Below are positions 23,654-51,321 of a stretch of 64,000 nucleotides of DNA, one piece after another. The notes beneath the pieces were generated by a model that saw nothing but the letters and a program-made list of their open reading frames with translations, had not been told where the DNA came from and did not search any database. Numbering within the stretch: position 1 is the stretch's first letter; every line of letters begins with the position of its first letter. The DNA is from a virus. The stretch lies in IMG/VR virus record IMGVR_UViG_3300050498_000393, one strand, 5' to 3'. The position numbers and the translations under genes are program-made.

Positions 23654-23941
23654 TGTTACAAGGTACAAGAAGTTTCGTGCATGTTTTCTATAGAGGCTCT
23701 ACCGCATCAACATACGATTATAAAGTGAAGTTGTTTGCACGTGCGAGCGCTCGAGCGCGTTAGAGGTAGCTGGTAGTAGTTTCTTGTTACTTGTAACAGA
23801 TCTAGAAAAATATACTATGAAAATCGACTACAACCCCAGAGAGAAGACTGTTACAAGAAGCCGTTACATCACCGTCTCTCTGTTGTTACAGCGAACAAGT
23901 CTGATGTGAGATCTGTTACATCAACGTCGGCTCAATGTAAC
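23654..23941. repeat. AT-rich region with at least 9 copies of (T)GTTAC(A) (iteron/origin-like)
   Basis: Copies at 23654, 23784, 23792 (inverted), 23849, 23862, 23884, 23914 and 23936 (inverted), plus GGTACAAG at 23662. Includes the palindrome TGTTAC-TT-GTAACA. Confidence 0.6.
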
Positions 23942-29396: not shown

Positions 29397-30383
29397 GTGC
29401 TGATCCTCGTGGAGGGACCGAACCTGGCCGGTAAGACGACGCTGGTGGATCGACTGGTCACCCAGCTCGCCGCCCGAGCCAGCGGCACGGTCACCCGACT
29501 GCACCGCGGCCCGATCGAGAACCGGCACCCGCTGGACGAATACGTGGTCCCCCTCCTGGACTATCACCCCGGGAGCGGGGACCACGTCGTCTGCGACCGC
29601 TGGCACGTCGGTGAGTCCGTGTACCCGTTCGTCTACCCGCGGCCGAGCAAGCTCGATCGTCCGACGTGGCTGTACATCACCGCGTTCCTCCGCGCACGCG
29701 GCGCCCTACTGGTGCATCGTACGGCGTTGCCCTCGGTGTTACGGAGGCGTCTACTCGAGCGTGGTGACGAGAACCTCGCGGTCAACTCGGATAACCTACG
29801 AGTTGAGAAGGACATCTTCGAGGTGATGTGTGCCGGTGGCTCGGCGACCGGTAACGTCGCCACCATGAGAATCGAAGGATCCGCTGACGAGGAGGTTCTG
29901 CGCAACATACGCGCCCGCGCACAGGTTCACGAGATAAGCGCGCGCAAGCTCGCCCCGTTCGTCACCTACGTCGGGCCGCCGAACCCGACCTTCCTGCTGT
30001 TCGGCGACGTGCGCGGTGGACCGAATCACCGACATCGCCACACCAACGACCCGGCGTTCGGTCCGTACCCCAACACCTCCGGGTACTACCTACTGCGTGC
30101 CCTCGACCTGCGAACGCCCAACTTAACCCAGATCGGTATCGCCAACGCGTGTGACGTGGACGATCCGGTCGATCTGTGGGAGACGCTCGGCCGTCCCCGG
30201 GTCGCGGCGCTGGGACGCAACGCGGCGCGTCTACTCCGCAAGCTCGACGCGTTTCCGTTCGGCGCGGCGCCCCATCCCCAGTTCATCAGGCGCTTTCACC
30301 ACGCGCATCACGTCGAGTACGGTCGCGTCGTGATGGAGGCCCTACTGACCGGAGAGAGTACGCCATCGTGGCAGCCCTACTGA
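29397..30383 (+). CDS. fusion of a P-loop (d)NMP-kinase-like domain with a uracil-DNA-glycosylase-superfamily domain
   Basis: N-terminal VEGPNLAGKTTL. The C-terminal FGDVRGGP..AFGPYPNTSGYYLLRAL..IANACDV..VAALGRNAARLL..APHPQFIRR follows family-4 UDG motif order. Confidence 0.7.
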   Translation: MLILVEGPNLAGKTTLVDRLVTQLAARASGTVTRLHRGPIENRHPLDEYVVPLLDYHPGSGDHVVCDRWHVGESVYPFVYPRPSKLDRPTWLYITAFLRARGALLVHRTALPSVLRRRLLERGDENLAVNSDNLRVEKDIFEVMCAGGSATGNVATMRIEGSADEEVLRNIRARAQVHEISARKLAPFVTYVGPPNPTFLLFGDVRGGPNHRHRHTNDPAFGPYPNTSGYYLLRALDLRTPNLTQIGIANACDVDDPVDLWETLGRPRVAALGRNAARLLRKLDAFPFGAAPHPQFIRRFHHAHHVEYGRVVMEALLTGESTPSWQPY

Positions 30384-31216
30384 CCTTCGAGAGTGGCCAG
30401 CACGCCTACCCCCACGTCGTCAACTGGGTGCTCGCGCACGGTCAGCCGCGCGGCGCGCGCGGCCTGCCGACGCTCGACTGCACACACGTGACCGTCGAAC
30501 TACTGTCACCGCTGAACGCGCTGCCGCTCAACTGCGGTCGCCGACTCAACCCGGCCATCGCCGCGTTGGAAGCCGCGCAACTGATCGGCGCGTTTTCGGA
30601 TCCCGAGCTCTGCGTCCGGATCGCACCCAACTTCCGGCGCTACCGCGAGGCAAGCGGCGTCTTCCACGGTGCGTACGGTCGACGCATCGGCGCCCAGCTG
30701 TCCGCCGCGATCACCAAGATCAAGAAGGATTCCGACACCCGGCAGGCGGTCATCTCGCTGTGGGATCCGTGGTTGGACAACCAGCCGGGAAAGCTGGACT
30801 ACCCGTGCACGATCGCACTTCGCCTGTCGCTCAACCCGGACGGCCGGCTCGACGTGGACGTGCTGATGCGCTCCAACGACGTTTGGCTCGGCACCCCGTA
30901 CGACTGGTTCCAGTTCACGCAGCTGCAGCTGACCGCGGCCCACGCGCTGGACGTCGAGCCGGGCACGTACCGACACACGGCGTGGTCCCTACACCTCTAC
31001 CGCGAGAACGAGGAGGCGGCGTGGAACGTGCACGCGTTTACCTCGCGAACGAGCCAGCCGCGCGGTATCGGTATTCGCGGCGAGGACGTCGACTCGATCG
31101 TGAGACGAGCGCGACGCTTTCACCTTAACGGTGAGGTTACCGACCGTGAGGCCGAGATGTGGACCAATTCAGAGAGGTGGTACCGTGAACGACTCAAGCC
31201 GCCCGTCGTGGGATGA
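30368..31216 (+). CDS. thymidylate-synthase-family enzyme, predicted deoxycytidylate hydroxymethylase/methylase
   Basis: RQAVISLWDP, DYPC147, RSNDVWLGTPYD179WFQF and SLHLYREN align with the ThyA motifs. Asp replaces the uracil-specifying Asn. GTG at 30368. Confidence 0.7.
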   Translation: MAALLTFESGQHAYPHVVNWVLAHGQPRGARGLPTLDCTHVTVELLSPLNALPLNCGRRLNPAIAALEAAQLIGAFSDPELCVRIAPNFRRYREASGVFHGAYGRRIGAQLSAAITKIKKDSDTRQAVISLWDPWLDNQPGKLDYPCTIALRLSLNPDGRLDVDVLMRSNDVWLGTPYDWFQFTQLQLTAAHALDVEPGTYRHTAWSLHLYRENEEAAWNVHAFTSRTSQPRGIGIRGEDVDSIVRRARRFHLNGEVTDREAEMWTNSERWYRERLKPPVVG

Positions 31217-31739
31217 GACGTGGATCAACGTCGCCCGCGTCGTTGCCCACCGCTCGCTCTGCGAGCGCGATAAGATCGGTGCGGTGATTGTCGACCCGCG
31301 CATGCGCATCGTCGCGACCGGGTACAACGGCCCGCCGTCCGGCTTCACCCTACCCGACCGGTTGACCGCCAACCGGCCGTGCGCCGAGTGGTGTCCACGG
31401 TCTGCCACGGCCGATTGGATAGCCGGAAAACCGCCGTATGAGAACGGTGAGGACTTTCCTAAGTGGGCCAACGCCGGCTTTCACGGACCGCATCCCGACT
31501 ACTCCGACTGCCCGTCACTCCACGCCGAGGCCAACGCGCTGTCGGTGTGTGAACGTTTCGTGCGCGAGAACGGCACGATCTACGTCACCGGAGACATCTG
31601 CTTCGGATGCGCTAAGTTAATTGCGAACTCTGGCCTGGCACGCGTCGTCATCGACGGCGTCCGACCGGCGATCCACCGCAACCCGGCGCGGTCGCGCGAG
31701 TTTCTGGTGACCTGCGGCCTCGCGGTGGTGGTAGTGTGA
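31185..31739 (+). CDS. dCMP deaminase (CDA fold)
   Basis: RPSWDETWINVARVVAHRSLC..KIGAVIVD, LHAEANAL and ICFGCAKLI zinc motifs. A ~45-aa insert lies between them. GTG at 31185 with an AGAGAGGTGG SD. Confidence 0.75.
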   Translation: MNDSSRPSWDETWINVARVVAHRSLCERDKIGAVIVDPRMRIVATGYNGPPSGFTLPDRLTANRPCAEWCPRSATADWIAGKPPYENGEDFPKWANAGFHGPHPDYSDCPSLHAEANALSVCERFVRENGTIYVTGDICFGCAKLIANSGLARVVIDGVRPAIHRNPARSREFLVTCGLAVVVV

Positions 31740-37953: not shown

Positions 37954-38756
37954 ACCCACCCAGCGGCACCCTGTCCGGTATCATCCACGCCGCGTCCAAG
38001 GTCGGTAAGTCGACGCTGTGCAGCACCGCGCCTCCCCCGATCTGCGTCTGGGACGTCGAAGGCTCGTGGCGGTTCATCGACCGCGCCGGGTTCTGTCGGG
38101 TGGGGCAGCACCTCGGTCCCACGTGTCCGTGCCCGCCGCTACGCAAGGTGTACTGGGATCCGAACACCGAGCCGCCACCCCGTTATGACGGCACGTGGGA
38201 GGCCTGTCTCGTCAACGTGCGCGACTGGCGCACCCTGACGAACGGCTACAACTGGCTGGCGCACCCCGGTTATCACGACTTCAAGTCGCTGGTCATCGAT
38301 AGCGTCACGGAAAGTCAGCGGAAGCTCAAGACGAATCTTAAGGGTCTCGAGCAGATGAAGATTCAGGACTGGGGTTCGCTGCTCGTCCAGATGGATAAGT
38401 TGATCCGCGACTGCCGTGACCTGGTGCTGTTACCCGAGTCACCGCTGCGCCTGGTGGTGTTCGTCGCCGAGACACGCCAGGAGAACGGTAAGTGGCGACC
38501 GTACATGCAAGGTCAGATCTCGGTCGCGTTGCCGTACTGGGTGGACATCGTGGGTTACCAGTACCCGTCCTGGGAGAACGACGCGGACGGTCAGTCGCAG
38601 GTACTGGTGAACCGACTGTGGATCGGACCGTCCGCGCAGTTCGAGACCGGCGAGCGGGTGCAGGGTCGCCTGGGTCACGACATTCGCGACCCACACCTAG
38701 GTAGAATGATGGAGACCCTATTCGGGGTCGAGCAGCCTGAGGAGGCAACCACGTGA
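37950..38756 (+). CDS. RecA-like ATPase (Sak4-like recombination protein)
   Basis: Walker A HAASKVGKST, Walker B SLVIDSVTE. GTGA overlap start. Lies between the nuclease and the SSB-like gene. Confidence 0.65.
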   Translation: MNPPSGTLSGIIHAASKVGKSTLCSTAPPPICVWDVEGSWRFIDRAGFCRVGQHLGPTCPCPPLRKVYWDPNTEPPPRYDGTWEACLVNVRDWRTLTNGYNWLAHPGYHDFKSLVIDSVTESQRKLKTNLKGLEQMKIQDWGSLLVQMDKLIRDCRDLVLLPESPLRLVVFVAETRQENGKWRPYMQGQISVALPYWVDIVGYQYPSWENDADGQSQVLVNRLWIGPSAQFETGERVQGRLGHDIRDPHLGRMMETLFGVEQPEEATT

Positions 38757-39355
38757 CCGATCCGAATCACGTGTCGTGGGGTTCACTACGACAGAAGGCC
38801 GAGGACGCGACCAAGCCGGCGCCTCCCGGTGACTACACGGTCGAGGTGAAGAGCGCCGTCGTCAAGGCCGCCTCGACCAGCGGCAACCCGATGATCGTGG
38901 TTACCGGAAAGATCACCGAGGGTCCGTACGCCGGTAAGACCGTGTTCAACAACTTCAACATCACGTATGACAACGACTTCGCATTGGCGATCTTCTTCCG
39001 GCACATGGCGGCGTTCGGTCTCGGTGCGGCGTTTTTCGACTCACTCGCGCCGGGCGATATCGAGCCGGTCGCACAGGCGCTGGTCGGTCGGTCGGCCCGC
39101 TGGACGTTGTCGATCCGACAGTGGCAAGGCCAGGATCGAAACCAGGTAGACACGATCGCGCCGTTGGGCGGACCCGGCGCGGCCGGTCCCGTACCACCGG
39201 TACCCGGGGGATCTCCGGCCTCAGTTCCGACTCCGAACGTCGGCCCGCCGTTGCCGGTCGCCGCACCACCCGGGCCATCTACGCCACCGTCACTACCGAC
39301 ACCCGCGCCGACCGAGGCGACCGTGCCACCCGCCCCACCGCCACTCCCCTTCTAA
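38753..39355 (+). CDS. DUF669/SSB-like single-strand DNA-binding protein
   Basis: OB-like N-terminus (GDYTVEVKSAVVKAASTSGNPMIVVTGKITEGPYAGKTVFNNFNI), Pro-rich tail and position in the module. Confidence 0.55.
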   Translation: MTDPNHVSWGSLRQKAEDATKPAPPGDYTVEVKSAVVKAASTSGNPMIVVTGKITEGPYAGKTVFNNFNITYDNDFALAIFFRHMAAFGLGAAFFDSLAPGDIEPVAQALVGRSARWTLSIRQWQGQDRNQVDTIAPLGGPGAAGPVPPVPGGSPASVPTPNVGPPLPVAAPPGPSTPPSLPTPAPTEATVPPAPPPLPF

Positions 39356-39358
39356 ATT

Positions 39359-39433
39359 CGATATAGTGAGACCGACGGCCGGGTTCAGCGTCGCACCCGG
39401 CCGTTCTCTCGTAGATCGAGTGAGGAGTAGACG
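39359..39433 (+). promoter_or_regulatory. -10-like TATAGT, perfect 9-bp hairpin (39375-39404) and GTAGATCGAGTGAGGAG leader
   Basis: The hairpin ACGGCCGGG-N12-CCCGGCCGT may also terminate the upstream operon. Confidence 0.4.
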
Positions 39434-40756
39434 ATGAAGATCGGGTACGGTAAGCTGGGTCGCAGCATGCCGCTGACCCTCTCACAATGCGGTAACCTCG
39501 GCGGCGACGTCGAGATGGTGCCCACGATCGATGCGCTGGCACGGCGGCATCCCGATGACGAGTTCTGGCTGCTCGGTCGCAACTCGGGTGAGGAACCCGT
39601 GTCGGTCGGACTGCCTTCGAACGTGATCAACCCGTGGAAGTGGTGGGGACCCGCGGTGTTGGAAGCCAAGCGTGCCGTCGGCCTCAACCACCCTGACCTG
39701 TCGATCGAGGAACACGACAAGCTCGGTCGGATCTTCGATGAGATCACGACGCCAACGTTTGTCGCGATGGATGCGTTGGTGCTCTGGGTTGGACAGCACG
39801 GCACGACGAACTCACCGATCCCGGGCGTTCGTAAGGAAGGCCTCACGAAGCCTCACGACTGGTGCGCGCTCTACTGCTCATATGTGCTGCGCGGCGTCAA
39901 CGCGTGGCGCGACGTAGATCCGTGGAAGCGTGAGGAGGTGTGGCTCAACTCGGATCCGCGTAACTACATGAAGATGCGCGACCTGAAGTGGCCCCTACGA
40001 CACCCGGTGCTGACACAGTACACGTTCATCAACCGTATGAAGCACGAGCGGTACGGCGACGGTGACGCCTTTGAAGAGTGGTCGGCGCACAACCACTGCG
40101 CACTCGAGCGGTCGAGTCACCGCGACAGGCTGTGGCTCTCTTACGCGCGCAACGAGTACGCCCGTCTCGAGGTCAACTCCCTGCTTCCCGGCGCACCGTT
40201 CGCGAAGGACGCGTGGTTCAGAAAGTATGATGCAGACCCAGCGCCGTTTGGCATCTTCATCAACGAGACGCGCCGTTACGTCAACTCGGCGAAGACTCGC
40301 TCACGGATCTTGCGCGACTGGGTGCTGCCACTCGAACCGGCGTTCATCCACGGCACGTGGTCGAAGGAGGGCCAGGCCGAGGTCGGTCGCGTGATCGAGC
40401 CACTGTCGCCGTCATCGTACTTCGCCCGGCTGCGGACCGTGCGATCAACGTTCACTACCCCGGCCAGTGGCACCGGTTGGGCGACGGCGAAGCCGTGGGA
40501 GGCGTTCGCGGTAGGCGTCGTGTGTTTCTTCCACCCGGACTACGACGACCAGGACAACATCCTCGGCGACGCACACCCGGACCTGCGCCGCTGGTTGCGA
40601 GTCGAATCGCCGGAACAACTCGCCAACCGTGTCAAGCACATGGCTGCAAACGACGAGCACTGGCGCTGGGTGATCGTCGAACAGTACAATCACTTTCGAC
40701 GCGCCGTCATCAAACCACGGTATCTGATGGCGATCGAGGAGAGGATCTGGAAGTGA
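39434..40756 (+). CDS. putative GT-B-type glycosyltransferase (440 aa), target unknown
   Basis: C-terminal ...TAKPWEAFAVGVVCFFHPDYD... resembles the sugar-donor-binding EA-x-A-x-G-x-P region of GT-B enzymes. The overall layout recalls T4 beta-glucosyltransferase. Not verifiable here. Confidence 0.4.
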   Translation: MKIGYGKLGRSMPLTLSQCGNLGGDVEMVPTIDALARRHPDDEFWLLGRNSGEEPVSVGLPSNVINPWKWWGPAVLEAKRAVGLNHPDLSIEEHDKLGRIFDEITTPTFVAMDALVLWVGQHGTTNSPIPGVRKEGLTKPHDWCALYCSYVLRGVNAWRDVDPWKREEVWLNSDPRNYMKMRDLKWPLRHPVLTQYTFINRMKHERYGDGDAFEEWSAHNHCALERSSHRDRLWLSYARNEYARLEVNSLLPGAPFAKDAWFRKYDADPAPFGIFINETRRYVNSAKTRSRILRDWVLPLEPAFIHGTWSKEGQAEVGRVIEPLSPSSYFARLRTVRSTFTTPASGTGWATAKPWEAFAVGVVCFFHPDYDDQDNILGDAHPDLRRWLRVESPEQLANRVKHMAANDEHWRWVIVEQYNHFRRAVIKPRYLMAIEERIWK

Positions 40757-41529
40757 GACGAGGAACCTCGGGCGCCGCGATCATGGTAAGTACCAATAAT
40801 CCGTTCCGGGTGCATAAGAGGGGCGACGAGCGGGTAGGCACGCAGGGTCGTTGGCTCCGGTCGATCAACCCACTGCCTTCTATCCTCCCGTATGTCTGGA
40901 CGACGCACGCCGAGTCATACGAGATGGAGTTGCTCCAGGAACCCAACCTCGGTTGGCTCGACACGCAGGTGTTACTGGAGTGGCTCGTGAGACAACTCGA
41001 GGATGACATCTGGGCACGCGATCCGGTTGTTGGATTCGACCTCCGGGCACACCAGCGTAAGCTGCTGCTCTACACACCGTTCCACGAGGTGTCGGACCCG
41101 GCGTGGACCCGATTCGTCGAACTACGACGAGAGATCGACTGGGACTCCCTGCGCCGCTGTCTCACACACGGTGACCCGACGTACGACAACGTGATGTTCC
41201 GTGACAACTCTGGTAAGCTGCCGACGCCGGTGCTGGTGGACCCGCTGCCGGCGACGCCGGCGGTGCCCGACCTTTGGTCGGTGGACCTGGGTAAGCTGCT
41301 GCAGTCGTGCCTCGGTTGGGAGGTGCACCGGTACTCGGATATTCGCATGTCATTCGCACACCCGCTGGAGCTACGCCAGGCGCTCAAGCTCGAACAGACG
41401 GACAACGAGTGGCGCGCGACCGTGTACTGGTGCGTCGTGCACCTGCTACGTACACTGCCGTACCTCGAGTCCGCGACCACACGCATAGGCGTGGGAAGGA
41501 TGATCGATGAGGCGTTACTTCTACTTTGA
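40753..41529 (+). CDS. APH/choline-kinase-like phosphotransferase (putative sugar kinase)
   Basis: LTHGDPTYDNVMF (HGDxxxxN) and VLVDPL. GTGA overlap start (alternative ATG at 40783). Confidence 0.6.
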   Translation: MRRGTSGAAIMVSTNNPFRVHKRGDERVGTQGRWLRSINPLPSILPYVWTTHAESYEMELLQEPNLGWLDTQVLLEWLVRQLEDDIWARDPVVGFDLRAHQRKLLLYTPFHEVSDPAWTRFVELRREIDWDSLRRCLTHGDPTYDNVMFRDNSGKLPTPVLVDPLPATPAVPDLWSVDLGKLLQSCLGWEVHRYSDIRMSFAHPLELRQALKLEQTDNEWRATVYWCVVHLLRTLPYLESATTRIGVGRMIDEALLLL

Positions 41530-42067
41530 CATCGACGGTGTGCTCGTGGACTCGCGTGCCACCGTGCGCGCCGCCTACGAGGGGGCTCTCGGCCAGCGCA
41601 TCGACGACGCCGTCTGGCAGGAGGTCTGGGGCAAGCCGTGGAAGTTGTGGCTACCCGACTTCGTGGGCGAGGTCGGCGAATCGGTCGGCGTGCACCGGCG
41701 TAAGAACGACATCTACCGCGAGCTGATCCGTGGTGGCCACGCGTTGCCCCTGGCCGGTGCGGTCGCCGTGCGTCTACTCCACGGCATGGATCACGGTGTT
41801 CGTCTGATCACCGGCGCGTCCGAGACGGCCGCGCACGCCGTCCTCCACTGGCTCAACATACCGATCCAGCTGTTGGATGTCACCGAGGCAAGTCGTACCG
41901 ACAAGGTAACCCGGCTCGCGTACCTCGAGTCACACGGCGGCGTCATCCACACCGACGATGACGAAAAGCTGATCGCCGAGCTCGAGGAACGCCGCGTGCC
42001 CGCGGTGCACTTCCACGGACAGTCGATCGACGAGTTGATGGATGAGTTGTGGACACGGTCATCCTAG
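41507..42067 (+). CDS. HAD-superfamily phosphatase/phosphomutase
   Basis: Motif I, YFYFDIDGVLVDS. Confidence 0.65.
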   Translation: MRRYFYFDIDGVLVDSRATVRAAYEGALGQRIDDAVWQEVWGKPWKLWLPDFVGEVGESVGVHRRKNDIYRELIRGGHALPLAGAVAVRLLHGMDHGVRLITGASETAAHAVLHWLNIPIQLLDVTEASRTDKVTRLAYLESHGGVIHTDDDEKLIAELEERRVPAVHFHGQSIDELMDELWTRSS

Positions 42068-42756
42068 CCGCGGGACGCAATCAACGACTGCAACACATCA
42101 TTCCCCCATATCACAAGCCGTTCATCGTGTTGAACGGTCGATCGGTGCTCGAGCGGGCGGTCGACGTCGCCACACAGACCCACCCGGGTGATCGCTGCAT
42201 CGTCGTGTGCGCCCCCCAGAACGCCGTGCAGGCGGCACACGTGGTCAACAGTCGAGCACTACTCGCGGTGCAAGCAATGCCACGTGGTCCCGGTGATGCA
42301 CTGTGGTGTGGGTTGCAACTCGTGGTTACCGAGCACGTGCTGGTACTCATGGGTGACAACGTAACGGATGTCGGGGATGTGCGGCTGTTTCAACCCACCT
42401 CTGACGCGACCGAACGCATCGGGATCCAGCGCACGCGAGATCTCGAGCGCGCCGCGTCATTCACCGTGTGGAACCACAAGTCACGACGTTGGGAGGAGAA
42501 GGTACCGATTGGACCCGAGCACACCGAACCCGCCGTCGACATCTACGGTGATGACACACGGCTGGTGACGTGTTGGTTTGGGCCCCTCATGTTACGCACC
42601 GCTAGAGCCCTGGACGTTCTCACTACGACACGTGTTGTCGACGATGGTACGGTTCGACCTGAGCTGCTCATCGGACCCATCTTAAGTGAATTGGCACCCA
42701 ACGGCATTCACGTTCCGGTGCACACATCCGACGTTGACACGGAGGTATTGCGGTGA
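42049..42756 (+). CDS. sugar-phosphate nucleotidyltransferase
   Basis: VILAAGRNQRL (LAAGxGxRL signature). Confidence 0.65.
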   Translation: MDTVILAAGRNQRLQHIIPPYHKPFIVLNGRSVLERAVDVATQTHPGDRCIVVCAPQNAVQAAHVVNSRALLAVQAMPRGPGDALWCGLQLVVTEHVLVLMGDNVTDVGDVRLFQPTSDATERIGIQRTRDLERAASFTVWNHKSRRWEEKVPIGPEHTEPAVDIYGDDTRLVTCWFGPLMLRTARALDVLTTTRVVDDGTVRPELLIGPILSELAPNGIHVPVHTSDVDTEVLR

Positions 42757-43667
42757 CAAAAACCGCCCTGGTGACCGGCTCGAACGGTTTCCTCGGTCGA
42801 CACTTCGTGCGCGAACTCGAATCACGCAACTGGAATGTCGTGACGATGGATGGTGAAGATCTCTCCAACGACGTCCGTGCGCTGTGGTACGAGACGGAGG
42901 ACGACACGTACGACCTCGTAGTGCACTGCGCGGCCGTTGGTCCAAACCGCGTGGCAATGTCGACGCCGAGCATGAATCTCGCTACCAACGTGCAACTGGA
43001 CGCGACGCTGTTCAACTGGGCTGTACAAACCAACCAGCGGCACGTGATCTACATCTCCTCAGCGGCGATCTACCCGGTGGAACTGCAGAGTATCGTTCTG
43101 AACATGCCCGGCTTCGAGACGATGTTGATCGAAAGTGATGTGCACCTTGACGATCCCGAGGTGCGCGTACCGGACGGCGACTACGGCTGGACAAAGTGGC
43201 TCGGCGAACGTATGGCACACCGGGCGCGCGCGCTCGGACTACAGGTTACGATCGTGCGACCGTTCTCGGGGTACGGCGAGGACCAGGACCCCGAACACTT
43301 CCCGTTTCCCGCCATCATGCGACGAGTGTGCAACGGCAATCTCACCGTGTGGGGCCCGGCCGGTCAGCGTCGTGACTGGATCCACGTCGACGACGTCGTA
43401 CGCGGCGCACTCGCGATCGCGGAGACCTCGGTCAACGAGACGGTGAATCTGTGTACGGGCGTCGGAACCACGTTCGGCGACCTGGCCGTCGCGATGGCCC
43501 GGGAGCTCGAGTTGCCGATCGCGCATCATCACATTATCTACGATGAGAACAAACCGACCGGTGTGTATCACCGCGTCGGTAACCCGGCACACATGCACGA
43601 GTTCTACGAGCCAAAGATCACACTCGAGGAGGGGATCCGACGTGCAGTCCGAGCCGCCGGTGCCTGA
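42753..43667 (+). CDS. NAD-dependent epimerase/dehydratase (SDR)
   Basis: ALVTGSNGFLGRH Rossmann motif. YGWTKWLGE is the YxxxK motif. Confidence 0.75.
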   Translation: MTKTALVTGSNGFLGRHFVRELESRNWNVVTMDGEDLSNDVRALWYETEDDTYDLVVHCAAVGPNRVAMSTPSMNLATNVQLDATLFNWAVQTNQRHVIYISSAAIYPVELQSIVLNMPGFETMLIESDVHLDDPEVRVPDGDYGWTKWLGERMAHRARALGLQVTIVRPFSGYGEDQDPEHFPFPAIMRRVCNGNLTVWGPAGQRRDWIHVDDVVRGALAIAETSVNETVNLCTGVGTTFGDLAVAMARELELPIAHHHIIYDENKPTGVYHRVGNPAHMHEFYEPKITLEEGIRRAVRAAGA

Positions 43668-44172
43668 TCGTTTGGCTACGATGATCGCGCTCCAGCGTTC
43701 GTTGCAGGAGACGCACATGCTTCGCGGCAACACGTTCGCTGATATGACCACACTGGAGCGGGTGCACTACGTCAGGGACATGTACGTCGCCGCTACCCAG
43801 GAGCTCGGTGAGGTGCTCGACGAGACGACGTGGAAGTCGTGGTCCGTCGCGCAACCCGCGATCCACGATGATCACCTCTTCGGCGAGGTGATCGACGTGT
43901 GGCACATCGTTATGAACCTGTTCCTCGTCGCGCGACCGAACGCGACGTCGGATGAGATCGCCGCCGAGATCTACCGTGCGTACCAACGGAAGCGACAGAT
44001 CAACGTCGAGCGGCAGGTCAACGGCTACGCCGGCGACGGTAAGTGTCCACTCTGCACGCGGGCGCTGGACGACGTGGGGTTCGTACCCGACCTCGAGGCG
44101 GATCCGGCCGGTCAAGACATGATGATGTGCCTCGGCTGTCGCGGTACGTTTCCACGGGACGACGTGAGGTGA
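43642..44172 (+). CDS. all-alpha NTP pyrophosphohydrolase (dimeric dUTPase/dCTPase/MazG-like) with C-terminal zinc ribbon
   Basis: ATQELGEVLDETTWKSW...GEVIDVWHIVMNLF acidic helix pattern. CPLC...CLGC. GTG at 43642 with a GAGGAGGGG SD. Confidence 0.55.
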   Translation: MQSEPPVPDRLATMIALQRSLQETHMLRGNTFADMTTLERVHYVRDMYVAATQELGEVLDETTWKSWSVAQPAIHDDHLFGEVIDVWHIVMNLFLVARPNATSDEIAAEIYRAYQRKRQINVERQVNGYAGDGKCPLCTRALDDVGFVPDLEADPAGQDMMMCLGCRGTFPRDDVR

Positions 44173-45371
44173 CCTACCGAGCGCTGGACGTCATGGGCTT
44201 CGCCGGCGGATTCACCCTCGGCGTCGTACAGGCCGGCTTCGAACTGGTCGGTAAGCGGGAGCTTCAGGGCGGATTCGGCGTGGCGAACTGTGAGGTCAAC
44301 CGACACCTACTCGGCTCGCGCTGGCAGACCGAGATCGGCCACGAGAGCTCGTGGACGCCGGTGGACACCGAGTTGGTCTTCGGCAACCCACCCTGCTCCG
44401 GCTTCTCGGTGATGTCGGCGAAGACGTTTCGCGGCGCGGACTCGAAGATCAACCACTGCATGTGGGCATTCGTCGAGTACGCGGCGCGCGTGCGACCCCA
44501 AGTCGCCGCGTTCGAGTCCGTCCAGCAGGCGTACACGAGCGCCGACGGCCGTGTGCTCATGACGTCGCTGCGCAATCGACTAGATGAGTTGACGGGTTGG
44601 CACTGGAACCTGCATCACGTGTTACACAACGCGTACTCGGTGGGTGGCGCCGCGCAACGACGTCGCTACTTCTGGGTGGCGTCGCGCGTGCCGTTCGGCG
44701 TCGAGGAACCCAACCCGCGCACGCGCCTTCCCCTGCTGCGCGACGTGATCGGCGACCTCGCCCAGCTCGGCCAGACGTGGCTACCGCAACCCTACCGAGC
44801 CAGCGCCGATTCCTGGGCCGAGCCGCGTCGCCGTACGGACGGTGCGGTGGACGGTCACGTGTCCCTGGACATCCCCCTGACCCGCCGGATACGGCAACTA
44901 CTGGACGCCGTCGACTGGAAGCCGGGGGAGGCGCTCGGCGACGTGTTATCTCGCTACTGGGACGAGTACGGCCGACTGCCCAACGGCTTTGACGAGGAAA
45001 AGATCGTTAAGAACGAGTTCCACGTGGGTTACACGACTCCGACGCGCTGGAACGGTAACAACCCGGCGCGTGTAATCACCGGTGGCGCGCTGCAGATGGT
45101 CGTGCACCCGTGGCTCGACCGGACGATCACCCACCGCGAGGCCGCGCGGGTGATGGGTTTTCCCGACGACTGGCTGATCGAACCGCTACGCGGCAAGTCA
45201 GGCCTACACCTCACGTGGGGTAAGGGAATCACGGTCGACTGTGGGCGCTGGCTCGGTGGTTGGATCAAGCGTGCCCTAGACGGTCAGCGGGGTAGCGTCG
45301 CCGGTAAGCTGGTCGGTAACCGTGAGTGGACCATCGACGTCACCAACTCGTATCGCAAGTTCATGTGGTAG
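44169..45371 (+). CDS. DNA cytosine-C5 methyltransferase-like enzyme
   Basis: Motif I DVMGFAGGF, motif IV GNPPCSGFS (Ser where Gln is usual), motif VI AAFESVQ, and REAARVMGFPDDW. GTGA overlap start. Confidence 0.75.
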   Translation: MTYRALDVMGFAGGFTLGVVQAGFELVGKRELQGGFGVANCEVNRHLLGSRWQTEIGHESSWTPVDTELVFGNPPCSGFSVMSAKTFRGADSKINHCMWAFVEYAARVRPQVAAFESVQQAYTSADGRVLMTSLRNRLDELTGWHWNLHHVLHNAYSVGGAAQRRRYFWVASRVPFGVEEPNPRTRLPLLRDVIGDLAQLGQTWLPQPYRASADSWAEPRRRTDGAVDGHVSLDIPLTRRIRQLLDAVDWKPGEALGDVLSRYWDEYGRLPNGFDEEKIVKNEFHVGYTTPTRWNGNNPARVITGGALQMVVHPWLDRTITHREAARVMGFPDDWLIEPLRGKSGLHLTWGKGITVDCGRWLGGWIKRALDGQRGSVAGKLVGNREWTIDVTNSYRKFMW

Positions 45372-45392
45372 TGTCGATCTCGACACAGTTTT
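45371..45392 (+). terminator. short hairpin with T-tract
   Basis: GTGTCG-ATCT-CGACAC followed by AGTTTT. Confidence 0.45.
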
Positions 45393-45411
45393 AAGAATCG
45401 GGGAGGTAGTC

Positions 45412-45675
45412 TTGGGCGCTCCAGCGAGCGAGGAGACCGCACGCCGGCGCGGTCGACCGCGCCCGGATGAAACGATCAACCGCGATGAACTCGTGCTCAC
45501 GCGCCTGCGTGAGTCCGGCGTGGCGATGACCCGTGATGAGGTCGCCCAGGCGGCTGAACTCACACCTGCGAAGGCGTACCTATCGCTGTGGCGACTGCGT
45601 CGCGACGGTCACGTCCAGCGGGTGCACCAGGACGGTAAGCACCGTTGGGTCGTCGTGGTACCGCAGTCTCCGTAG
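45412..45675 (+). CDS. small winged-helix DNA-binding protein (87 aa)
   Basis: TTG start with a GGGGAGG SD. ...VAMTRDEVAQAAELTPAKAYLSLWRLRRDGHVQRV... is MarR/wHTH-like. Confidence 0.55.
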   Translation: MGAPASEETARRRGRPRPDETINRDELVLTRLRESGVAMTRDEVAQAAELTPAKAYLSLWRLRRDGHVQRVHQDGKHRWVVVVPQSP

Positions 45676-45683
45676 GAGGAAGC

Positions 45684-46013
45684 GTGGATCCACTACCGGC
45701 GCTCCTGCCGACGCTCAGGGAACTGGGTACGGCGGGAGCGCTGCTCGTTGTGCTGCTCGCCCTGTTTCGCGGTTGGCTGGTGATCGGCGCGCAACAGCAA
45801 CGTCTGATCGACGTCTACGACAAGTTGATCGCGGACAAGGACCGACAGATCGCCGACTGGAAGGCCTTCGGTGAGGCCGCCGATCGACGCGGTGACCTGT
45901 TCGGCGAGGCACTCCGGGACAACACCGAGACGTTGCGTACCCAGGTCGAGGTGGGTCGTGAGGTACAGCGCTTCATACTCGGCACGTCGACGGACGGGCG
46001 GAGGTCTGCGTAG
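45684..46013 (+). CDS. membrane-anchored coiled-coil protein of the lysis cassette (109 aa)
   Basis: GTG with an AGGAGGAAGC SD. N-terminal TM segment (GTAGALLVVLLALFRGWLVIG), then a helical region. Confidence 0.55.
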   Translation: MDPLPALLPTLRELGTAGALLVVLLALFRGWLVIGAQQQRLIDVYDKLIADKDRQIADWKAFGEAADRRGDLFGEALRDNTETLRTQVEVGREVQRFILGTSTDGRRSA

Positions 46014-46234
46014 TGCGCTGGCCGTGGCAGAGAGACATCGATGATCCGTCGCTGAACGGCGCTAGGCTAGAGTCACCGGAGGCACGCGAGGCACGCGAGG
46101 CACGCAGAGAGAGTGAGGCCAAGCTCGACGAGGCCCACAACGCGGTGCGTCACTCCGAGCAGGTACGACGAGCGGCAAATCGACTGGCGAATGACCTGAC
46201 GCAGGCGATGCGGAGGAGAACGGCACGTGGTTGA
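46013..46234 (+). CDS. hypothetical charged helical protein (73 aa)
   Basis: GTG overlapping the upstream TAG. Contains a 3 x 9-bp tandem repeat (GAGGCACGC, 46079-46105) encoding EAREAREAR. Confidence 0.5.
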   Translation: MRWPWQRDIDDPSLNGARLESPEAREAREARRESEAKLDEAHNAVRHSEQVRRAANRLANDLTQAMRRRTARG

Positions 46235-46544
46235 ACTGCTACGTACGCTGGGCACGGGGGCGATGATCGCCGGCATCGTGGCGTTTGTACTGTTTCTCCT
46301 TCTCTACCTAACGGGCTCCGACTGGCGCGCGACGCCGATCGGCCGCTACGTGGCGGCGTTCTTCGGTTTGATCGCAGTCTTGTTGATCTACATTGCCGTG
46401 ATCACGTTCCTTATGCCGGCGTTACCTCTCACCGTGCGACTGATCATTCGGCTCTGGGTATTTGGTTCGTTCGCCACACTAGGCTGGTGGCTCGTCGTGA
46501 TACTGCTACGTGTCCAGCGTCGAGAACGGCACGATCGAGAGTAG
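46227..46544 (+). CDS. holin-like membrane protein (105 aa, about 4 TM)
   Basis: Multiple hydrophobic segments and a basic C-terminus (RVQRRERHDRE). Immediately upstream of the endolysin. Confidence 0.6.
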   Translation: MVELLRTLGTGAMIAGIVAFVLFLLLYLTGSDWRATPIGRYVAAFFGLIAVLLIYIAVITFLMPALPLTVRLIIRLWVFGSFATLGWWLVVILLRVQRRERHDRE

Positions 46545-51192: not shown

Positions 51193-51311
51193 ATGAGTCT
51201 CCCGAGGAGCGCCAGTGCGATGAACAACCCGAGGATGCCACCGGCCCAGAGTGTGATCGCGCCGACGAGTAACGCAATGTCCCAGAGCGTGCGACGCAGA
51301 CTTATACCCAT
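51189..51311 (-). CDS. tiny membrane protein (40 aa)
   Basis: MGISLRRTLWDIALLVGAITLWAGGILGLFIALALLGRLM. Confidence 0.45.
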   Translation of the reverse strand: MGISLRRTLWDIALLVGAITLWAGGILGLFIALALLGRLM

Positions 51312-51321
51312 ACGTTCGATT

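What the first reader, a model, noticed from the sequence alone, without database searches (positions are those of the whole stretch)
39434..43667. Private sugar-activation pathway plus a GT-B-like transferase embedded in the replication/nucleotide module
Seen in sequence: five consecutive genes, three of the four junctions being start/stop overlaps.
- A 440-aa GT-B-like protein.
- An APH-type kinase (HGDPTYDN).
- A HAD phosphatase/mutase (DIDGV).
- A sugar-1-phosphate nucleotidyltransferase (LAAGRNQRL).
- An SDR epimerase/dehydratase (GxxGxxG, YxxxK).

They sit between the SSB-like gene and the NTP pyrophosphatase/C5-MTase-like genes, not next to the virion genes.

Established knowledge: kinase + mutase + nucleotidyltransferase + epimerase is the generic route from a free sugar to a tailored NDP-sugar. 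T-even phages glucosylate hmC with dedicated GT-B enzymes.

Inference: the cluster may decorate the predicted modified cytosine with an unusual sugar. Alternatively, it feeds the tail-proximal glycosyltransferases.
Basis: partly seen in the sequence, partly recalled or inferred. Interest (0 to 1): 0.8.

Follow-up and report, generated by a model that had tools for sequence, protein, structure and literature searches.

The report
Predicted DNA-sugar-tagging gene cassette in actinophage
An uncultivated phage of high-GC bacteria carries a tightly packed gene set that most likely makes its own activated sugar and attaches it to hydroxymethylated cytosines in its DNA; this resembles phages T4 and RB69 but uses a new enzyme family and a rearranged pathway, and none of it has been tested chemically.

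Summary
The five genes are real and sit at the stated coordinates. All four junctions are start/stop overlaps, not three.

- **440-aa protein:** no family hit by sequence, but a confident model (pLDDT 89.6) is GT-B. Its six best solved-structure matches are all T4 DNA beta-glucosyltransferase.
- **Kinase:** APH/choline-kinase fold. Its profile matches the kinase domain of RB69 AfhE better than any solved structure.
- **HAD protein:** all four catalytic motifs are present; it is closest to sugar-(bis)phosphate phosphatases.
- **Nucleotidyltransferase:** a generic sugar-1-phosphate type.
- **SDR:** 4-epimerase/GDP-fucose-synthase-like.

The operon runs on into a dCTPase/dUTPase-like gene and a C5-methyltransferase. 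Upstream lies a thymidylate-synthase homolog with the T4 gp42 (dCMP hydroxymethylase) active-site pattern.

Among related phages, these genes are all present or all absent. The 440-aa protein is conserved, while the genes behind it swap between several sugar-nucleotide cassettes, one with the RB69-type fused enzyme plus an isomerase.

Best reading: glycosylation of 5-hydroxymethylcytosine in DNA using a privately made NDP-sugar. This is a new variant of a known kind. The sugar, the acceptor and the role of the methyltransferase remain untested.

The parts
29397..30383 (+). P-loop nucleotide-kinase-like N-terminal domain fused to an unassigned C-terminal domain. Candidate kinase for the modified dCMP.
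   Evidence: GPNLAGKTT P-loop. Weak match to YorR (2axp/3kb2), E 0.0076; 3kb2 is the structure PMC13326640 lists for the DLP3 gp78 nucleotide kinase. 33% identical over its full length to the 'thymidylate kinase' of phage DSL-LC01, in the same position. No Pfam hit.
30380..31216 (+). Thymidylate-synthase homolog, predicted dCMP hydroxymethylase (makes 5-hydroxymethyl-dCMP).
   Evidence: PF00303, 4e-16. Best solved relative is MilA CMP 5-hydroxymethylase, 1.7e-12. The active-site columns DYPCT / MRSNDVWLGTPYD equal the T4 gp42 pattern (D143, D169, D177), not the RB69 pattern (N169). The same pattern holds in the other 37 clade members aligned.
31131..31739 (+). dCMP deaminase. The ORF is given from its first possible start; the true start is probably later.
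   Evidence: PF00383, 4.8e-14. Always found together with the thymidylate-synthase homolog in related loci.
39356..39421 (+). Extended hairpin in the 78-nt gap between the SSB-like gene and the 440-aa gene. It leaves the GAGGAG ribosome-binding site free. Possible terminator or processing site; function not shown.
   Evidence: MFE -34.1 kcal/mol, z = -3.2, with 1 of 200 shuffles folding as well. Sequence. It lacks a T-run and the terminator scan did not call it.
39434..40756 (+). 440-aa GT-B glycosyltransferase of a new, phage-only family. Predicted DNA (5-hydroxymethylcytosine) glycosyltransferase.
   Evidence: - AF2 pLDDT 89.6, pTM 0.88.
- Foldseek PDB ranks 1-6 are T4 beta-glucosyltransferase, E 3e-10 to 1.5e-9, TM on target 0.56-0.67.
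- BFVD: a viral 'DNA beta-glucosyltransferase' at TM 0.72/0.69, E 2e-20.
- hhalign against T4 BGT: E 1.7e-4 but only 49.5% probability, residues 349-418 on BGT 265-328.
- 636 homologs, none annotated.
- None in 185,579 representative genomes.
40753..41529 (+). APH/choline-kinase-fold sugar(-phosphate) kinase, related to the kinase domain of AfhE.
   Evidence: - 45 of 60 homologs hit PF01636.
- AF2 pLDDT 93.9.
- Foldseek hits include LicA (TM 0.62) and APH(2'')-IIa 3ham.
- Profile against RB69 gp52: 34.0 bits, E 1.7e-7, against 24.8 bits for the best PDB chain.
- hhalign probability 96.3%, E 1.9e-9.
41507..42067 (+). HAD-superfamily sugar-phosphate phosphatase. Functional analogue of AfhF, not its homolog.
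   Evidence: All four HAD motifs are conserved. Best solved relatives are CbbY xylulose-1,5-bisphosphate phosphatase (1.5e-5) and the TM_1254 sugar-phosphate phosphatase (1.8e-4). No similarity to RB69 gp51. Only 8 homologs were found, and the gene is missing from many kinase + nucleotidyltransferase loci.
42049..42756 (+). Sugar-1-phosphate nucleotidyltransferase (makes the NDP-sugar).
   Evidence: PF12804, 2.7e-10. Profile hits: RmlA 3hl3 2.3e-13, HddC 2e-11, GlmU 8e-11, MurU 4y7t 1.5e-7. 29% identical to the N-terminal domain of the fused nucleotidyltransferase-kinase of locus L069, E 4e-9.
42753..43667 (+). Extended SDR, NDP-sugar 4-epimerase/reductase-like. Probably tailors the NDP-sugar, and probably inherited from a different cassette type.
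   Evidence: PF01370, 6.4e-36. Best PDB hit is UDP-glucose 4-epimerase 4zrm, 1e-15; other hits include MoeE5 and GDP-fucose synthase. NCBIfam Fcl 5e-20, far below its cut-off. Orthologs (39-51% identity) sit next to the 440-aa gene in loci that have an RGP-like gene and no kinase or nucleotidyltransferase.
43681..44172 (+). All-alpha dUTPase_2 / dCTPase-like nucleotide pyrophosphatase. Predicted to clear canonical dCTP and/or dUTP.
   Evidence: PF08761, 3.2e-10. PHROG dUTPase, 1.7e-18. T4 gp56 dCTPase/dUTPase aligns to 43885-44028, 40% over 48 aa, E 2e-7. Found in 14 of the 17 loci with the thymidylate-synthase homolog and in none of the 22 without it.
44169..45371 (+). C5-cytosine DNA methyltransferase. 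It co-inherits with the system, but its role there is unexplained.
   Evidence: PF00145, 1.2e-18. My reading of the sequence finds FAGGF, PPCSGFS and QRRR motifs. 57-68% identical across most of the clade. Start overlaps the previous stop as GTGA.

Best explanation
The cluster is the sugar half of a DNA hypermodification system.

**Proposed mechanism (inferred, not shown)**
1. Upstream, a gp42-like thymidylate-synthase homolog converts dCMP to 5-hydroxymethyl-dCMP. A P-loop kinase, a dCMP deaminase and a dCTPase/dUTPase-like pyrophosphatase bias the nucleotide pool, so the phage polymerase builds 5-hydroxymethylcytosine into DNA.
2. The APH-fold kinase phosphorylates a host sugar or sugar phosphate.
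3. The HAD enzyme removes the non-anomeric phosphate.
4. The nucleotidyltransferase makes the NDP-sugar, and the SDR may epimerise it.
5. The 440-aa T4-BGT-like GT-B enzyme transfers the sugar onto the hydroxymethyl group in DNA, protecting the genome from host nucleases.

**Shown here:** the folds and families of all parts, the active-site signature of the hydroxymethylase, the operon coupling, and the co-inheritance of the parts.

**Inferred:** the acceptor, the order of steps, the sugar, and the biological purpose.
For: 1. The 440-aa model is GT-B and its top six solved matches are all T4 DNA beta-glucosyltransferase. A viral 'DNA beta-glucosyltransferase' matches at TM 0.72. A weak sequence-level match to the T4 BGT C-terminal region (E 1.7e-4, 49.5% probability) aligns the invariant K353-x-x-E356 with BGT R269-x-x-E272.
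2. The thymidylate-synthase homolog has the T4 gp42 pattern in the window, the other 37 clade members aligned, DSL-LC01 and Kurnik. PMC13326640 uses these same columns to separate product types.
3. The kinase profile scores RB69 gp52 (AfhE kinase domain) above every solved structure. AfhE/AfhF make UDP-arabinose for DNA glycosylation, as reported in PMC13326640.
4. Some relatives carry, in the same slot, a fused nucleotidyltransferase-kinase plus a SIS isomerase. These are homologous to RB69 gp53/52 and gp55 (E 1e-8, 2e-4 and 2e-13) and to the window's split genes (E 2e-4 and 4e-9).
5. Seven genes from 39434 to 45371 are joined by overlaps or a 13-nt gap, tying the sugar genes to the nucleotide-pool and DNA-methylation genes.
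6. Phylogenetic profile of 39 polymerase-selected loci with full flanks. 21 lack the thymidylate-synthase homolog, deaminase, pyrophosphatase, methyltransferase, 440-aa gene and cassette altogether, and one more has only the deaminase. All 17 with the homolog have the deaminase and nearly all have the rest.
7. Positional analogues sit in the same slot. DSL-LC01 has a glycosyltransferase plus UDP-galactopyranose mutase; cultured Micrococcus phage Kurnik has a 442-aa protein plus two glycosyltransferases. Both slots lie between the recombination genes and MazG/methyltransferase.
8. The cassette type maps more parsimoniously on the 440-aa tree (5 steps) than on the polymerase or methyltransferase trees (7 steps). 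The window's 440-aa gene groups with kinase-HAD-nucleotidyltransferase loci although its backbone groups with another type.
Against: - There are no chemical data on any member of this clade.
- Sequence similarity of the 440-aa protein to T4 BGT is marginal (49.5% probability, 64 columns). The BGT catalytic Asp100 could not be mapped.
- The HAD is not homologous to AfhF, and the nucleotidyltransferase is no closer to AfhE than to generic RmlA/GlmU enzymes.
- The window has no arabinose-5-phosphate isomerase, so the sugar is unknown.
- A conserved, apparently active C5-methyltransferase is hard to reconcile with complete replacement of C by hydroxymethyl-C.
- The pyrophosphatase belongs to a dUTPase family, so dCTP specificity is only suggested.
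- A conserved transferase paired with very different cassettes is unexpected if the cassette product is its donor.
- The trees are neighbour-joining trees without bootstrap.
Confidence: 0.6

Rival explanations
1. The four sugar-nucleotide genes supply a donor for the virion-type glycosyltransferases at 50131-52537 (one GT1-like, two GT2). Capsid or tail proteins would be glycosylated, as reported for some mycobacteriophages (from my own knowledge). The 440-aa enzyme would be an additional protein glycosyltransferase.
For: The window does encode a GT1-like and two GT2 genes plus a methyltransferase on the - strand next to structural genes. The same cluster is present in most relatives. The SDR's best NCBIfam hit is GDP-L-fucose synthase, and a GDP-mannose-4,6-dehydratase-like gene lies at 49142-50149. 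Together these two could make a GDP-6-deoxyhexose.
Against: - The virion glycosyltransferase cluster is found with every cassette type, so it does not co-vary with the cassette.
- The cassette is about 6.5 kb away, on the other strand, and is translationally coupled to the nucleotide-pool and methyltransferase genes.
- The cassette and 440-aa gene co-inherit with the hydroxymethylase set.
- The nearest structural relatives of the 440-aa protein are DNA glucosyltransferases, not protein O-glycosyltransferases.
- The GDP-fucose-synthase hit is 72 bits against a cut-off of 500. By my reading of the sequence against the E. coli enzyme as I recall it, the motif SSAAIYP lacks the catalytic Cys.
Confidence: 0.12
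2. The 440-aa GT-B enzyme and its pathway modify a non-DNA host target during infection, such as cell-wall glycopolymer, lipid or a host protein. The purpose could be superinfection exclusion or receptor masking. Linkage to DNA-metabolism genes would then reflect only early-gene timing.
For: After T4 BGT, the fold matches are ordinary small-molecule and lipid GT-B enzymes: MshA, PimA, WaaG and VldE. The kinase + HAD + nucleotidyltransferase triad is also the enzyme-family composition of the AmgK/MupP/MurU cell-wall recycling route (from my own knowledge). MurU 4y7t is hit at 1.5e-7.
Against: - All-or-none co-inheritance with the dCMP-hydroxymethylase set.
- The family is absent from 185,579 bacterial and archaeal representative genomes.
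- T4 BGT ranks clearly above the other GT-B enzymes, E 3e-10 against 1e-7 or weaker.
- The equivalent slot in DSL-LC01 holds a glycosyltransferase plus UDP-galactopyranose mutase. PMC13326640 proposes that kind of combination for DNA galactosylation in phage RL38J1.
Confidence: 0.1
3. DNA is the target, but the chemistry differs from hydroxymethyl-C glycosylation. One option is that kinase + nucleotidyltransferase make a CDP-alcohol type donor (LicA/LicC logic), which a GT-B-fold enzyme transfers as a phospho-group. Another is that the acceptor base is produced with the help of the C5-methyltransferase rather than by the thymidylate-synthase homolog alone.
For: The kinase model's highest TM-score is to choline kinase LicA (0.62), and ethanolamine kinase ranks second. 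The C5-methyltransferase is found in 12 of the 17 loci that have the thymidylate-synthase homolog and in none of the 22 that lack it. It is among the most conserved proteins of the clade. GT-B-like folds also include CDP-glycerol transferases (from my own knowledge).
Against: - The nucleotidyltransferase profile is closest to sugar-1-phosphate enzymes: RmlA, HddC, GlmU.
- The HAD is closest to sugar-(bis)phosphate phosphatases.
- Relatives replace the cassette with SDR, RGP-like or SIS genes, all of which belong to sugar metabolism.
- No TET/JBP-type oxygenase was seen among the ORFs scanned.
Confidence: 0.08

Closest known systems
T4-type 5-hydroxymethylcytosine glucosylation (gp42 dCMP hydroxymethylase, gp56 dCTPase, gp1 kinase, cd deaminase, alpha/beta-glucosyltransferase; CAZy GT63 for BGT)
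   Same: - A thymidylate-synthase homolog with the same active-site pattern as gp42.
- A dCMP deaminase.
- An all-alpha pyrophosphatase with local similarity to gp56.
- A P-loop nucleotide kinase next to the hydroxymethylase.
- A GT-B transferase whose nearest solved structures are T4 BGT.
   Different: - T4 uses host UDP-glucose and encodes no sugar-activation genes; here a kinase, HAD, nucleotidyltransferase and SDR are attached.
- The 440-aa enzyme is about 90 residues longer than BGT and only marginally similar in sequence, so it is not a GT63 member by sequence.
- The phage appears to infect Actinobacteria and is about 64 kb, not a T-even phage. Its polymerase's nearest database relatives are actinobacteriophages.
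- A C5-methyltransferase belongs to the set.
Afh system: arabinosylated 5-hydroxycytosine of RB69, DLP3, HY126 (PMC13326640)
   Same: - The same logic of a private NDP-sugar route placed beside the thymidylate-synthase homolog and a GT-B transferase.
- An APH-fold kinase specifically related to the AfhE kinase domain.
- A sugar-1-phosphate nucleotidyltransferase and a HAD phosphatase.
- Relatives in the same clade have the AfhE-like fusion plus a SIS isomerase homologous to RB69 gp55.
   Different: - The base is predicted to be 5-hydroxymethyl-C, not 5-hydroxy-C: D169 is retained, against N169 in RB69.
- Kinase and nucleotidyltransferase are separate genes.
- The HAD is not homologous to AfhF.
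- The window has no arabinose-5-phosphate isomerase.
- An extra SDR is present.
- The transferase is nearer to T4 BGT than to the HY126 glycosyltransferase 9iqz, which ranks 18th.
Rhizobium phage RL38J1 hexosylated cytosine, and MAG phage DSL-LC01 (glycosyltransferase + UDP-galactopyranose mutase)
   Same: A glycosyltransferase plus a phage-encoded NDP-sugar-tailoring enzyme. In DSL-LC01 these lie in the same slot, between the SSB-like gene and MazG/C5-methyltransferase, downstream of an identical kinase / thymidylate-synthase homolog / deaminase / polymerase order.
   Different: The glycosyltransferases are not detectably homologous to the 440-aa protein. The sugar gene is a mutase rather than a kinase/HAD/nucleotidyltransferase set. 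RL38J1 uses 5-hydroxy-C.
AmgK / MupP / MurU peptidoglycan-recycling route and the GmhB/HddC heptose route (bacterial)
   Same: The same enzyme superfamilies in the same combination: APH-fold or other sugar kinase, HAD sugar-phosphate phosphatase, and sugar-1-phosphate nucleotidyltransferase. HddC and MurU appear among the profile hits.
   Different: Those are cellular housekeeping or envelope pathways. Here the genes are phage-only, sit in a DNA-metabolism operon, and are paired with a BGT-like transferase.

Membership tests
GT-B fold glycosyltransferases | Two Rossmann-like domains, with the donor bound by the C-terminal domain | tested here: met
   The AF2 model (pLDDT 89.6) alternates strands and helices in two halves. 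141 PDB matches at E <= 0.001; all 50 listed are GT-B-fold enzymes.
CAZy GT63 (T4 beta-glucosyltransferase family) | Significant sequence similarity to T4 BGT over the catalytic domains | tested here: not met
   hhalign of the family profile against T4 BGT gives only 64 aligned columns, E 1.7e-4, probability 49.5%. phmmer against PDB finds nothing. Fold similarity is TM 0.56-0.67 on the target. It works like BGT at fold level but is not a sequence-family member.
CAZy GT63 (T4 beta-glucosyltransferase family) | Acceptor is 5-hydroxymethylcytosine in duplex DNA | not testable with these tools
   Only context supports it.
T4-type hydroxymethyl-C pathway | dCMP hydroxymethylase: thymidylate-synthase fold with Asp at ThyA position 177, Asp at 143 and Asp at 169 | tested here: met
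   Alignment with E. coli ThyA, T4 gp42 and RB69 gp48. Window = DYPCT / MRSNDVWLGTPYD; T4 = DFMCT / MRSNDVVFGFRND.
T4-type hydroxymethyl-C pathway | dCTPase that excludes canonical dCTP | tested here: inconclusive
   PF08761 dUTPase_2, 3.2e-10. Local match to T4 gp56, E 2e-7 over 48 aa. Substrate specificity cannot be read from the sequence.
T4-type hydroxymethyl-C pathway | Uses host UDP-glucose, with no phage sugar-activation genes | tested here: not met
   Four sugar-nucleotide genes follow the transferase.
Afh arabinosyl-5-hydroxycytosine system (PMC13326640) | 5-hydroxy-dCMP synthase signature D169N | tested here: not met
   The window and the other 37 clade homologs aligned keep Asp169; RB69 gp48 has Asn.
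Afh arabinosyl-5-hydroxycytosine system (PMC13326640) | AfhE: one protein with an N-terminal nucleotidyltransferase and a C-terminal APH-like kinase | tested here: not met
   The window has two separate genes with the HAD gene between them. The kinase is specifically related to RB69 gp52. The nucleotidyltransferase is only generically related: 25.5 bits to gp53 against 53 bits to RmlA. The fused form exists in relatives L061-L065 and L069.
Afh arabinosyl-5-hydroxycytosine system (PMC13326640) | AfhF HAD phosphatase | tested here: inconclusive
   A HAD with all catalytic motifs is present and is closest to sugar-bisphosphate phosphatase CbbY. It has no detectable homology to RB69 gp51.
Afh arabinosyl-5-hydroxycytosine system (PMC13326640) | Arabinose-5-phosphate isomerase (SIS domain) | tested here: not met
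   tblastn of RB69 gp55 and the clade's SIS proteins against the window gives nothing significant. SIS genes are present in relatives L061-L065.
APH / choline-kinase-like phosphotransferases (PF01636) | Protein-kinase-like fold with an HxDxxxxN catalytic loop and a downstream metal-binding Asp | tested here: met
   H139, G140, D141, N146 and D163 are invariant. 45 of 60 homologs hit PF01636. The model matches LicA, APH(2'') and APH(3').
HAD superfamily phosphatases | Motifs I (DxD), II (T/S), III (K) and IV (DD) | tested here: met
   D8, D10, T102, D150 and D151 are invariant, and a Lys is present in most members. Pfam PF00702 is below its cut-off for the window copy.
Actinophage virion glycosylation clusters | Glycosyltransferase genes adjacent to the structural genes | tested here: not met
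   The finding lies inside the replication/nucleotide module. A separate cluster at 50131-52537 does meet this feature.

The most novel reading that the evidence does not exclude
A large, uncultivated clade of actinobacterial phages makes glycosylated 5-hydroxymethylcytosine DNA with a new BGT-like enzyme family. That enzyme is partnered with at least five interchangeable sugar-nucleotide cassettes:
- split kinase / HAD / nucleotidyltransferase;
- fused AfhE-like enzyme plus SIS isomerase;
- RGP/GT75-like protein with or without an SDR;
- nucleotidyltransferase alone;
- the window's own mosaic of the first type plus an SDR.

The sugar on the DNA would then differ from phage to phage and include sugars not yet seen on DNA. 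The always-co-inherited C5-methyltransferase would be a working part of the system, for example giving mixed 5-methyl/hydroxymethyl patterns or a new reaction on modified cytosine.
Probability: 0.3. Interest if true: 0.8.

Novelty: new variant of a known kind. Interest (0 to 1): 0.62.

Why it matters
- **First such system in actinobacterial phages.** In the paper library I searched, sugar-modified cytosine DNA is documented for T-even-like phages, a Shewanella phage and a Rhizobium phage, but nothing came up for phages of Actinobacteria. If the prediction holds, this would be the first.
- **A large new enzyme family.** The 440-aa DNA glycosyltransferase candidate has 636 homologs, none annotated and none with a Pfam domain.
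- **A natural experiment.** The same transferase slot is fed by interchangeable sugar cassettes.
- **Practical reach.** Modified DNA of this kind resists restriction enzymes and probably other nucleases. It can distort sequencing and metagenome recovery, and it is a source of DNA-labelling enzymes.
- **A culturable entry point.** Micrococcus phage Kurnik has the same slot layout.

Tried and rejected
- **Close relatives by DNA or protein.** Megablast of the cluster against 50,697 phage records found no match. tblastn of the 440-aa protein found only a 128-residue N-terminal match in a Pseudoalteromonas phage.
- **Family searches on the 440-aa protein.** Pfam, PHROGs and NCBIfam gave nothing, and phmmer against PDB gave nothing.
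- **Pairwise BLASTP against RB69.** The kinase shared only the HGDPxxxN loop with gp52; the nucleotidyltransferase and HAD shared nothing with gp53 and gp51. Profiles were needed.
- **Idea that the SDR pairs with the GDP-mannose-dehydratase-like gene to make GDP-fucose for the virion enzymes.** Kept only as a rival. SDR orthologs sit beside the 440-aa gene in many relatives, and the Fcl hit is far below its cut-off.
- **Idea that the SDR is a unique add-on.** Rejected for the same reason.
- **Search for a SIS isomerase or RGP-like gene in the window.** Absent.
- **hhalign of the 440-aa profile against positional analogues.** The DSL-LC01 glycosyltransferase, the Kurnik 442-aa protein and the L157 415-aa protein showed no homology. 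Pfam on the outgroup slot ORFs gave nothing.
- **Promoter and terminator scan of 38500-46500.** Nothing above chance.
- **Scan of 185,579 representative genomes for the 440-aa family.** None found, so it gave no host clue.
- **Literature.** Searches for hydroxymethylcytosine in actinobacteriophages and for Kurnik found nothing relevant. The one paper naming DSL-LC01 was not read.
- **Not attempted.** PADLOC, Rfam, and structure models of the HAD, nucleotidyltransferase, SDR and RGP-like proteins.

Full report
**1. The observation**

The window is 60-69% GC almost throughout.

Reading the junctions refines the gene models:

| Gene | Coordinates | Length |
|---|---|---|
| 440-aa protein | 39434-40756 | 440 aa |
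| Kinase | 40753-41529 | 258 aa |
| HAD | 41507-42067 | 186 aa |
| Nucleotidyltransferase | 42049-42756 | 235 aa |
| SDR | 42753-43667 | 304 aa |

All four junctions are overlaps (GTGA, 23 nt, 19 nt, GTGA). The compact run also continues past the finding. After a 13-nt gap comes a dUTPase_2 gene (43681-44172), and after another GTGA overlap a C5-methyltransferase (44169-45371).

Codon-position GC (GC3 0.67-0.83) supports all seven as coding. Upstream, a 78-nt gap after the DUF669 SSB-like gene folds into a long hairpin (-34.1 kcal/mol, z = -3.2) that leaves the GAGGAG site free.

**2. What the five proteins are**

*The 440-aa protein.* It has no hit in Pfam, PHROGs, NCBIfam or by sequence against PDB. 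It does have 636 homologs, at 51-98% identity among the 120 best listed. All are unannotated and many sit on 50-105 kb metagenome contigs. The 50%-cluster library holds 269 more distant representatives.

An AlphaFold2 model built on 59 homologs is confident: pLDDT 89.6, pTM 0.88. Foldseek against PDB ranks six T4 beta-glucosyltransferase entries first (E 3e-10 to 1.5e-9, TM on target 0.56-0.67). Generic GT-B enzymes follow at E 1e-7 or weaker: VldE, MshA, PimA, glycogen synthase. The HY126 phage glycosyltransferase 9iqz ranks 18th.

Against predicted viral structures, the best matches are an uncharacterised myovirus protein (TM 0.71/0.79) and a protein named DNA beta-glucosyltransferase (TM 0.72/0.69, E 2e-20).

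A profile-to-sequence comparison with T4 BGT gives one weak match (E 1.7e-4, 49.5% probability). It aligns residues 349-418 with BGT 265-328 and puts the invariant K353 and E356 on BGT R269 and E272. From my own knowledge, those two BGT residues contact the UDP-glucose donor.

No relative exists in 185,579 representative bacterial and archaeal genomes. The protein is therefore a phage-only GT-B family that resembles T4 BGT in fold. By sequence it is not a GT63 member.

*The kinase.* The window copy misses Pfam, but 45 of 60 homologs hit APH. The model (pLDDT 93.9) matches choline kinase LicA, ethanolamine kinase and aminoglycoside/macrolide phosphotransferases, including 3ham. PMC13326640 reports 3ham as the top hit for the RB69 gp52:53 kinase domain.

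With the database size held equal, the family profile scores RB69 gp52 at 34.0 bits (E 1.7e-7). The best PDB chain reaches 24.8 bits. hhalign gives 96.3% probability over 188 columns.

*The HAD protein.* It keeps motifs I-IV. Its closest solved relatives are CbbY, a xylulose-1,5-bisphosphate phosphatase, and a sugar-phosphate phosphatase. It is not related to RB69 gp51 and has only eight homologs in the large database.

*The nucleotidyltransferase.* It is a generic sugar-1-phosphate enzyme. Profile hits are RmlA 2e-13, HddC 2e-11, GlmU 8e-11 and MurU 1.5e-7.

*The SDR.* It is closest to UDP-sugar 4-epimerases and, more weakly, to dehydratases and GDP-fucose synthase.

**3. The surroundings**

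Upstream lies a run of nucleotide and replication genes:
- a P-loop kinase fused to an unassigned domain (29397-30383);
- a thymidylate-synthase homolog (30380-31216);
- a dCMP deaminase;
- a family A polymerase, an SNF2 helicase, a PD-(D/E)XK nuclease, a Sak4-like protein and the SSB-like protein.

I aligned the thymidylate-synthase homolog with E. coli ThyA, T4 gp42 and RB69 gp48. The window reads DYPCT / MRSNDVWLGTPYD and T4 gp42 reads DFMCT / MRSNDVVFGFRND. RB69 has Asn at position 169, which PMC13326640 identifies as the marker of 5-hydroxy-dCMP synthases. The same paper cites position 177 for base choice and position 143 for hydroxymethyl versus methyl products. The other 37 clade homologs aligned share the T4 pattern. 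The predicted product is therefore 5-hydroxymethyl-dCMP.

T4 gp56 dCTPase/dUTPase aligns locally with the window's dUTPase_2 gene (E 2e-7).

**4. Related loci**

*Loci retrieved with the 440-aa family (73 loci).* The 440-aa gene sits downstream of the SSB-like gene in all but two divergent loci. In most loci it lies directly upstream of the pyrophosphatase and methyltransferase genes, and the same upstream genes are present wherever the flank reaches them.

The genes adjacent to the 440-aa gene vary. Most lie between it and the pyrophosphatase gene; some lie just upstream of it. The combinations seen are:
- kinase + HAD + nucleotidyltransferase;
- kinase + nucleotidyltransferase;
- nucleotidyltransferase alone;
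- an RGP/GT75-like protein, with or without an SDR;
- a fused nucleotidyltransferase-kinase followed by a SIS isomerase.

The fusion and the SIS protein are homologous to RB69 gp53/gp52 and gp55 (E 2e-4, 1e-8 and 2e-13). The fusion is also homologous to the window's separate nucleotidyltransferase and kinase (E 4e-9 and 2e-4). The window is the only locus that combines the three-gene set with the SDR.

On neighbour-joining trees, the window's 440-aa protein groups with the kinase-HAD-nucleotidyltransferase loci L001/L002. Its polymerase and methyltransferase instead group with L056, an SDR + RGP type. The cassette category needs 5 changes on the 440-aa tree against 7 on the other two. The SDR is most similar to the SDRs of that other type. 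This suggests a module swap that left the SDR behind. The evidence is weak because the trees have no bootstrap.

*Loci retrieved with the polymerase, independently of the transferase.* 39 of these had enough flank to score:

| Thymidylate-synthase homolog | Loci | Other genes of the set |
|---|---|---|
| Absent | 22 | 21 lack the deaminase, pyrophosphatase, methyltransferase, 440-aa gene and cassette; one has only the deaminase |
| Present | 17 | All have the deaminase and most have the pyrophosphatase and methyltransferase |

Seven of the 17 carry the 440-aa gene. The other ten have unassigned ORFs in the slot, mostly a 364-415 aa ORF followed by one of about 340 aa. One low-GC outgroup (L157/L152) has the kinase-HAD-nucleotidyltransferase set next to a non-homologous 415-aa protein.

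*Two annotated phages with the same layout.*
- DSL-LC01 is metagenome-assembled. Its slot holds a glycosyltransferase plus UDP-galactopyranose mutase.
- Micrococcus phage Kurnik is cultured. Its slot holds a 442-aa protein plus two glycosyltransferases, followed by MazG and a methyltransferase. Its thymidylate-synthase homolog is nearly T4-like.

**5. Mechanism**

The best-supported reading is that this is the sugar half of a cytosine hypermodification system.
- Hydroxymethyl-dCMP is made and incorporated as in T4.
- An NDP-sugar is made by a split version of the AfhE/AfhF logic described for RB69 and HY126: sugar phosphate to bisphosphate to 1-phosphate to NDP-sugar. A salvage order is also possible: phosphatase, anomeric kinase, nucleotidyltransferase.
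- The SDR may tailor the NDP-sugar.
- The BGT-like enzyme transfers the sugar to the hydroxymethyl group on DNA.

Shown: the folds, motifs, operon structure and co-inheritance. Inferred: the acceptor, the sugar and the order of steps. I put this at 0.6.

The sugar cannot be named. The fused-enzyme + SIS relatives point to arabinose, but the window lacks the isomerase.

**6. Rivals**

- *Feeding the virion-type glycosyltransferases at 50131-52537.* This is possible but disfavoured. That cluster occurs with every cassette type and has its own GDP-mannose-dehydratase-like neighbour at 49142-50149.
- *A non-DNA host target, or a non-sugar donor.* Neither can be excluded without chemistry.

**7. 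Unexplained**

The C5-methyltransferase is apparently intact, is among the most conserved proteins of the clade, and is inherited with the system. Complete replacement of C by hydroxymethyl-C would leave it without a substrate.

**8. Novelty**

The kind is known: T4, RB69/HY126 and RL38J1. What is new:
- the transferase family;
- the split and mosaic pathway;
- the cassette swapping;
- the apparent host group, inferred from the polymerase's nearest database relatives, which are actinobacteriophages at 37% identity or less.

Three searches of the paper library found no description of such DNA in actinobacteriophages.

Noticed in passing
window 44169-45371: The C5-cytosine methyltransferase is among the most conserved proteins of the clade (57-68% identity in most loci). 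In polymerase-selected loci it occurs only with the dCMP-hydroxymethylase-like gene. That is odd if cytosine is fully replaced. Its role is unknown.
   Followed up: partly
window 29397-30383: A 328-aa protein with an N-terminal P-loop kinase (weak YorR/3kb2 match) and a C-terminal half of about 150 aa with no family hit. By eye the C-terminal half has UDG-like motifs (FGDVRGGPN, PHPQF). The fusion is conserved in phage DSL-LC01 (33% identity).
   Followed up: partly
window 49142-53157: A second sugar set. A GDP-mannose-4,6-dehydratase-like SDR lies on the + strand. It converges on a GT1-like gene, two GT2 genes and a methyltransferase on the - strand, next to structural genes. This is probably a separate virion-glycosylation cluster.
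   Followed up: partly
window 39356-39421: Strong hairpin (-34.1 kcal/mol, z -3.2) between the SSB-like gene and the 440-aa gene. It has no T-run. Its conservation in relatives was not checked.
   Followed up: partly
window 23932-26334 (- strand): The GC content jumps to 0.75 over an 800-aa ORF. By eye its sequence looks like a primase-polymerase fused to a P-loop helicase. It was not scanned against any library.
   Followed up: no
L078:316-1389, L009:3111-4217 and about 35 other related loci: The commonest neighbour of the 440-aa gene in relatives is a protein of about 355 aa with weak RGP / STELLO (GT75) matches. Only the L009 copy passes the Pfam cut-off. It could be a UDP-arabinose-mutase-like enzyme or a second glycosyltransferase. 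It is absent from the window.
   Followed up: partly
L157:16653-20932, L111:16889-19140, L131, L147, L154: Lower-GC outgroup phages have the hydroxymethylase set but fill the transferase slot with unassigned ORFs of 364-415 aa and about 340 aa. These have no Pfam hit, and the one tested (L157, 415 aa) showed no profile match to the 440-aa family. L157 also has the kinase-HAD-nucleotidyltransferase set there.
   Followed up: partly
L083 (Micrococcus phage Kurnik, OR756649.1 35500-52000): This cultured phage has a thymidylate-synthase homolog almost identical in its active-site segment to T4 gp42 (FICTNTVQYLIRDG...NMRSNDAVYGFRNDYAWQ). The homolog lies upstream of the replication genes. After them, in order, come a 442-aa protein, two glycosyltransferases, MazG and a methyltransferase. 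No paper on it was found.
   Followed up: partly
window 41507-42064 (protein P0353): The exact HAD protein sequence is recorded on 13 public contigs, the longest 65,534 bp. The window is therefore probably almost a whole phage genome that has been recovered repeatedly.
   Followed up: no
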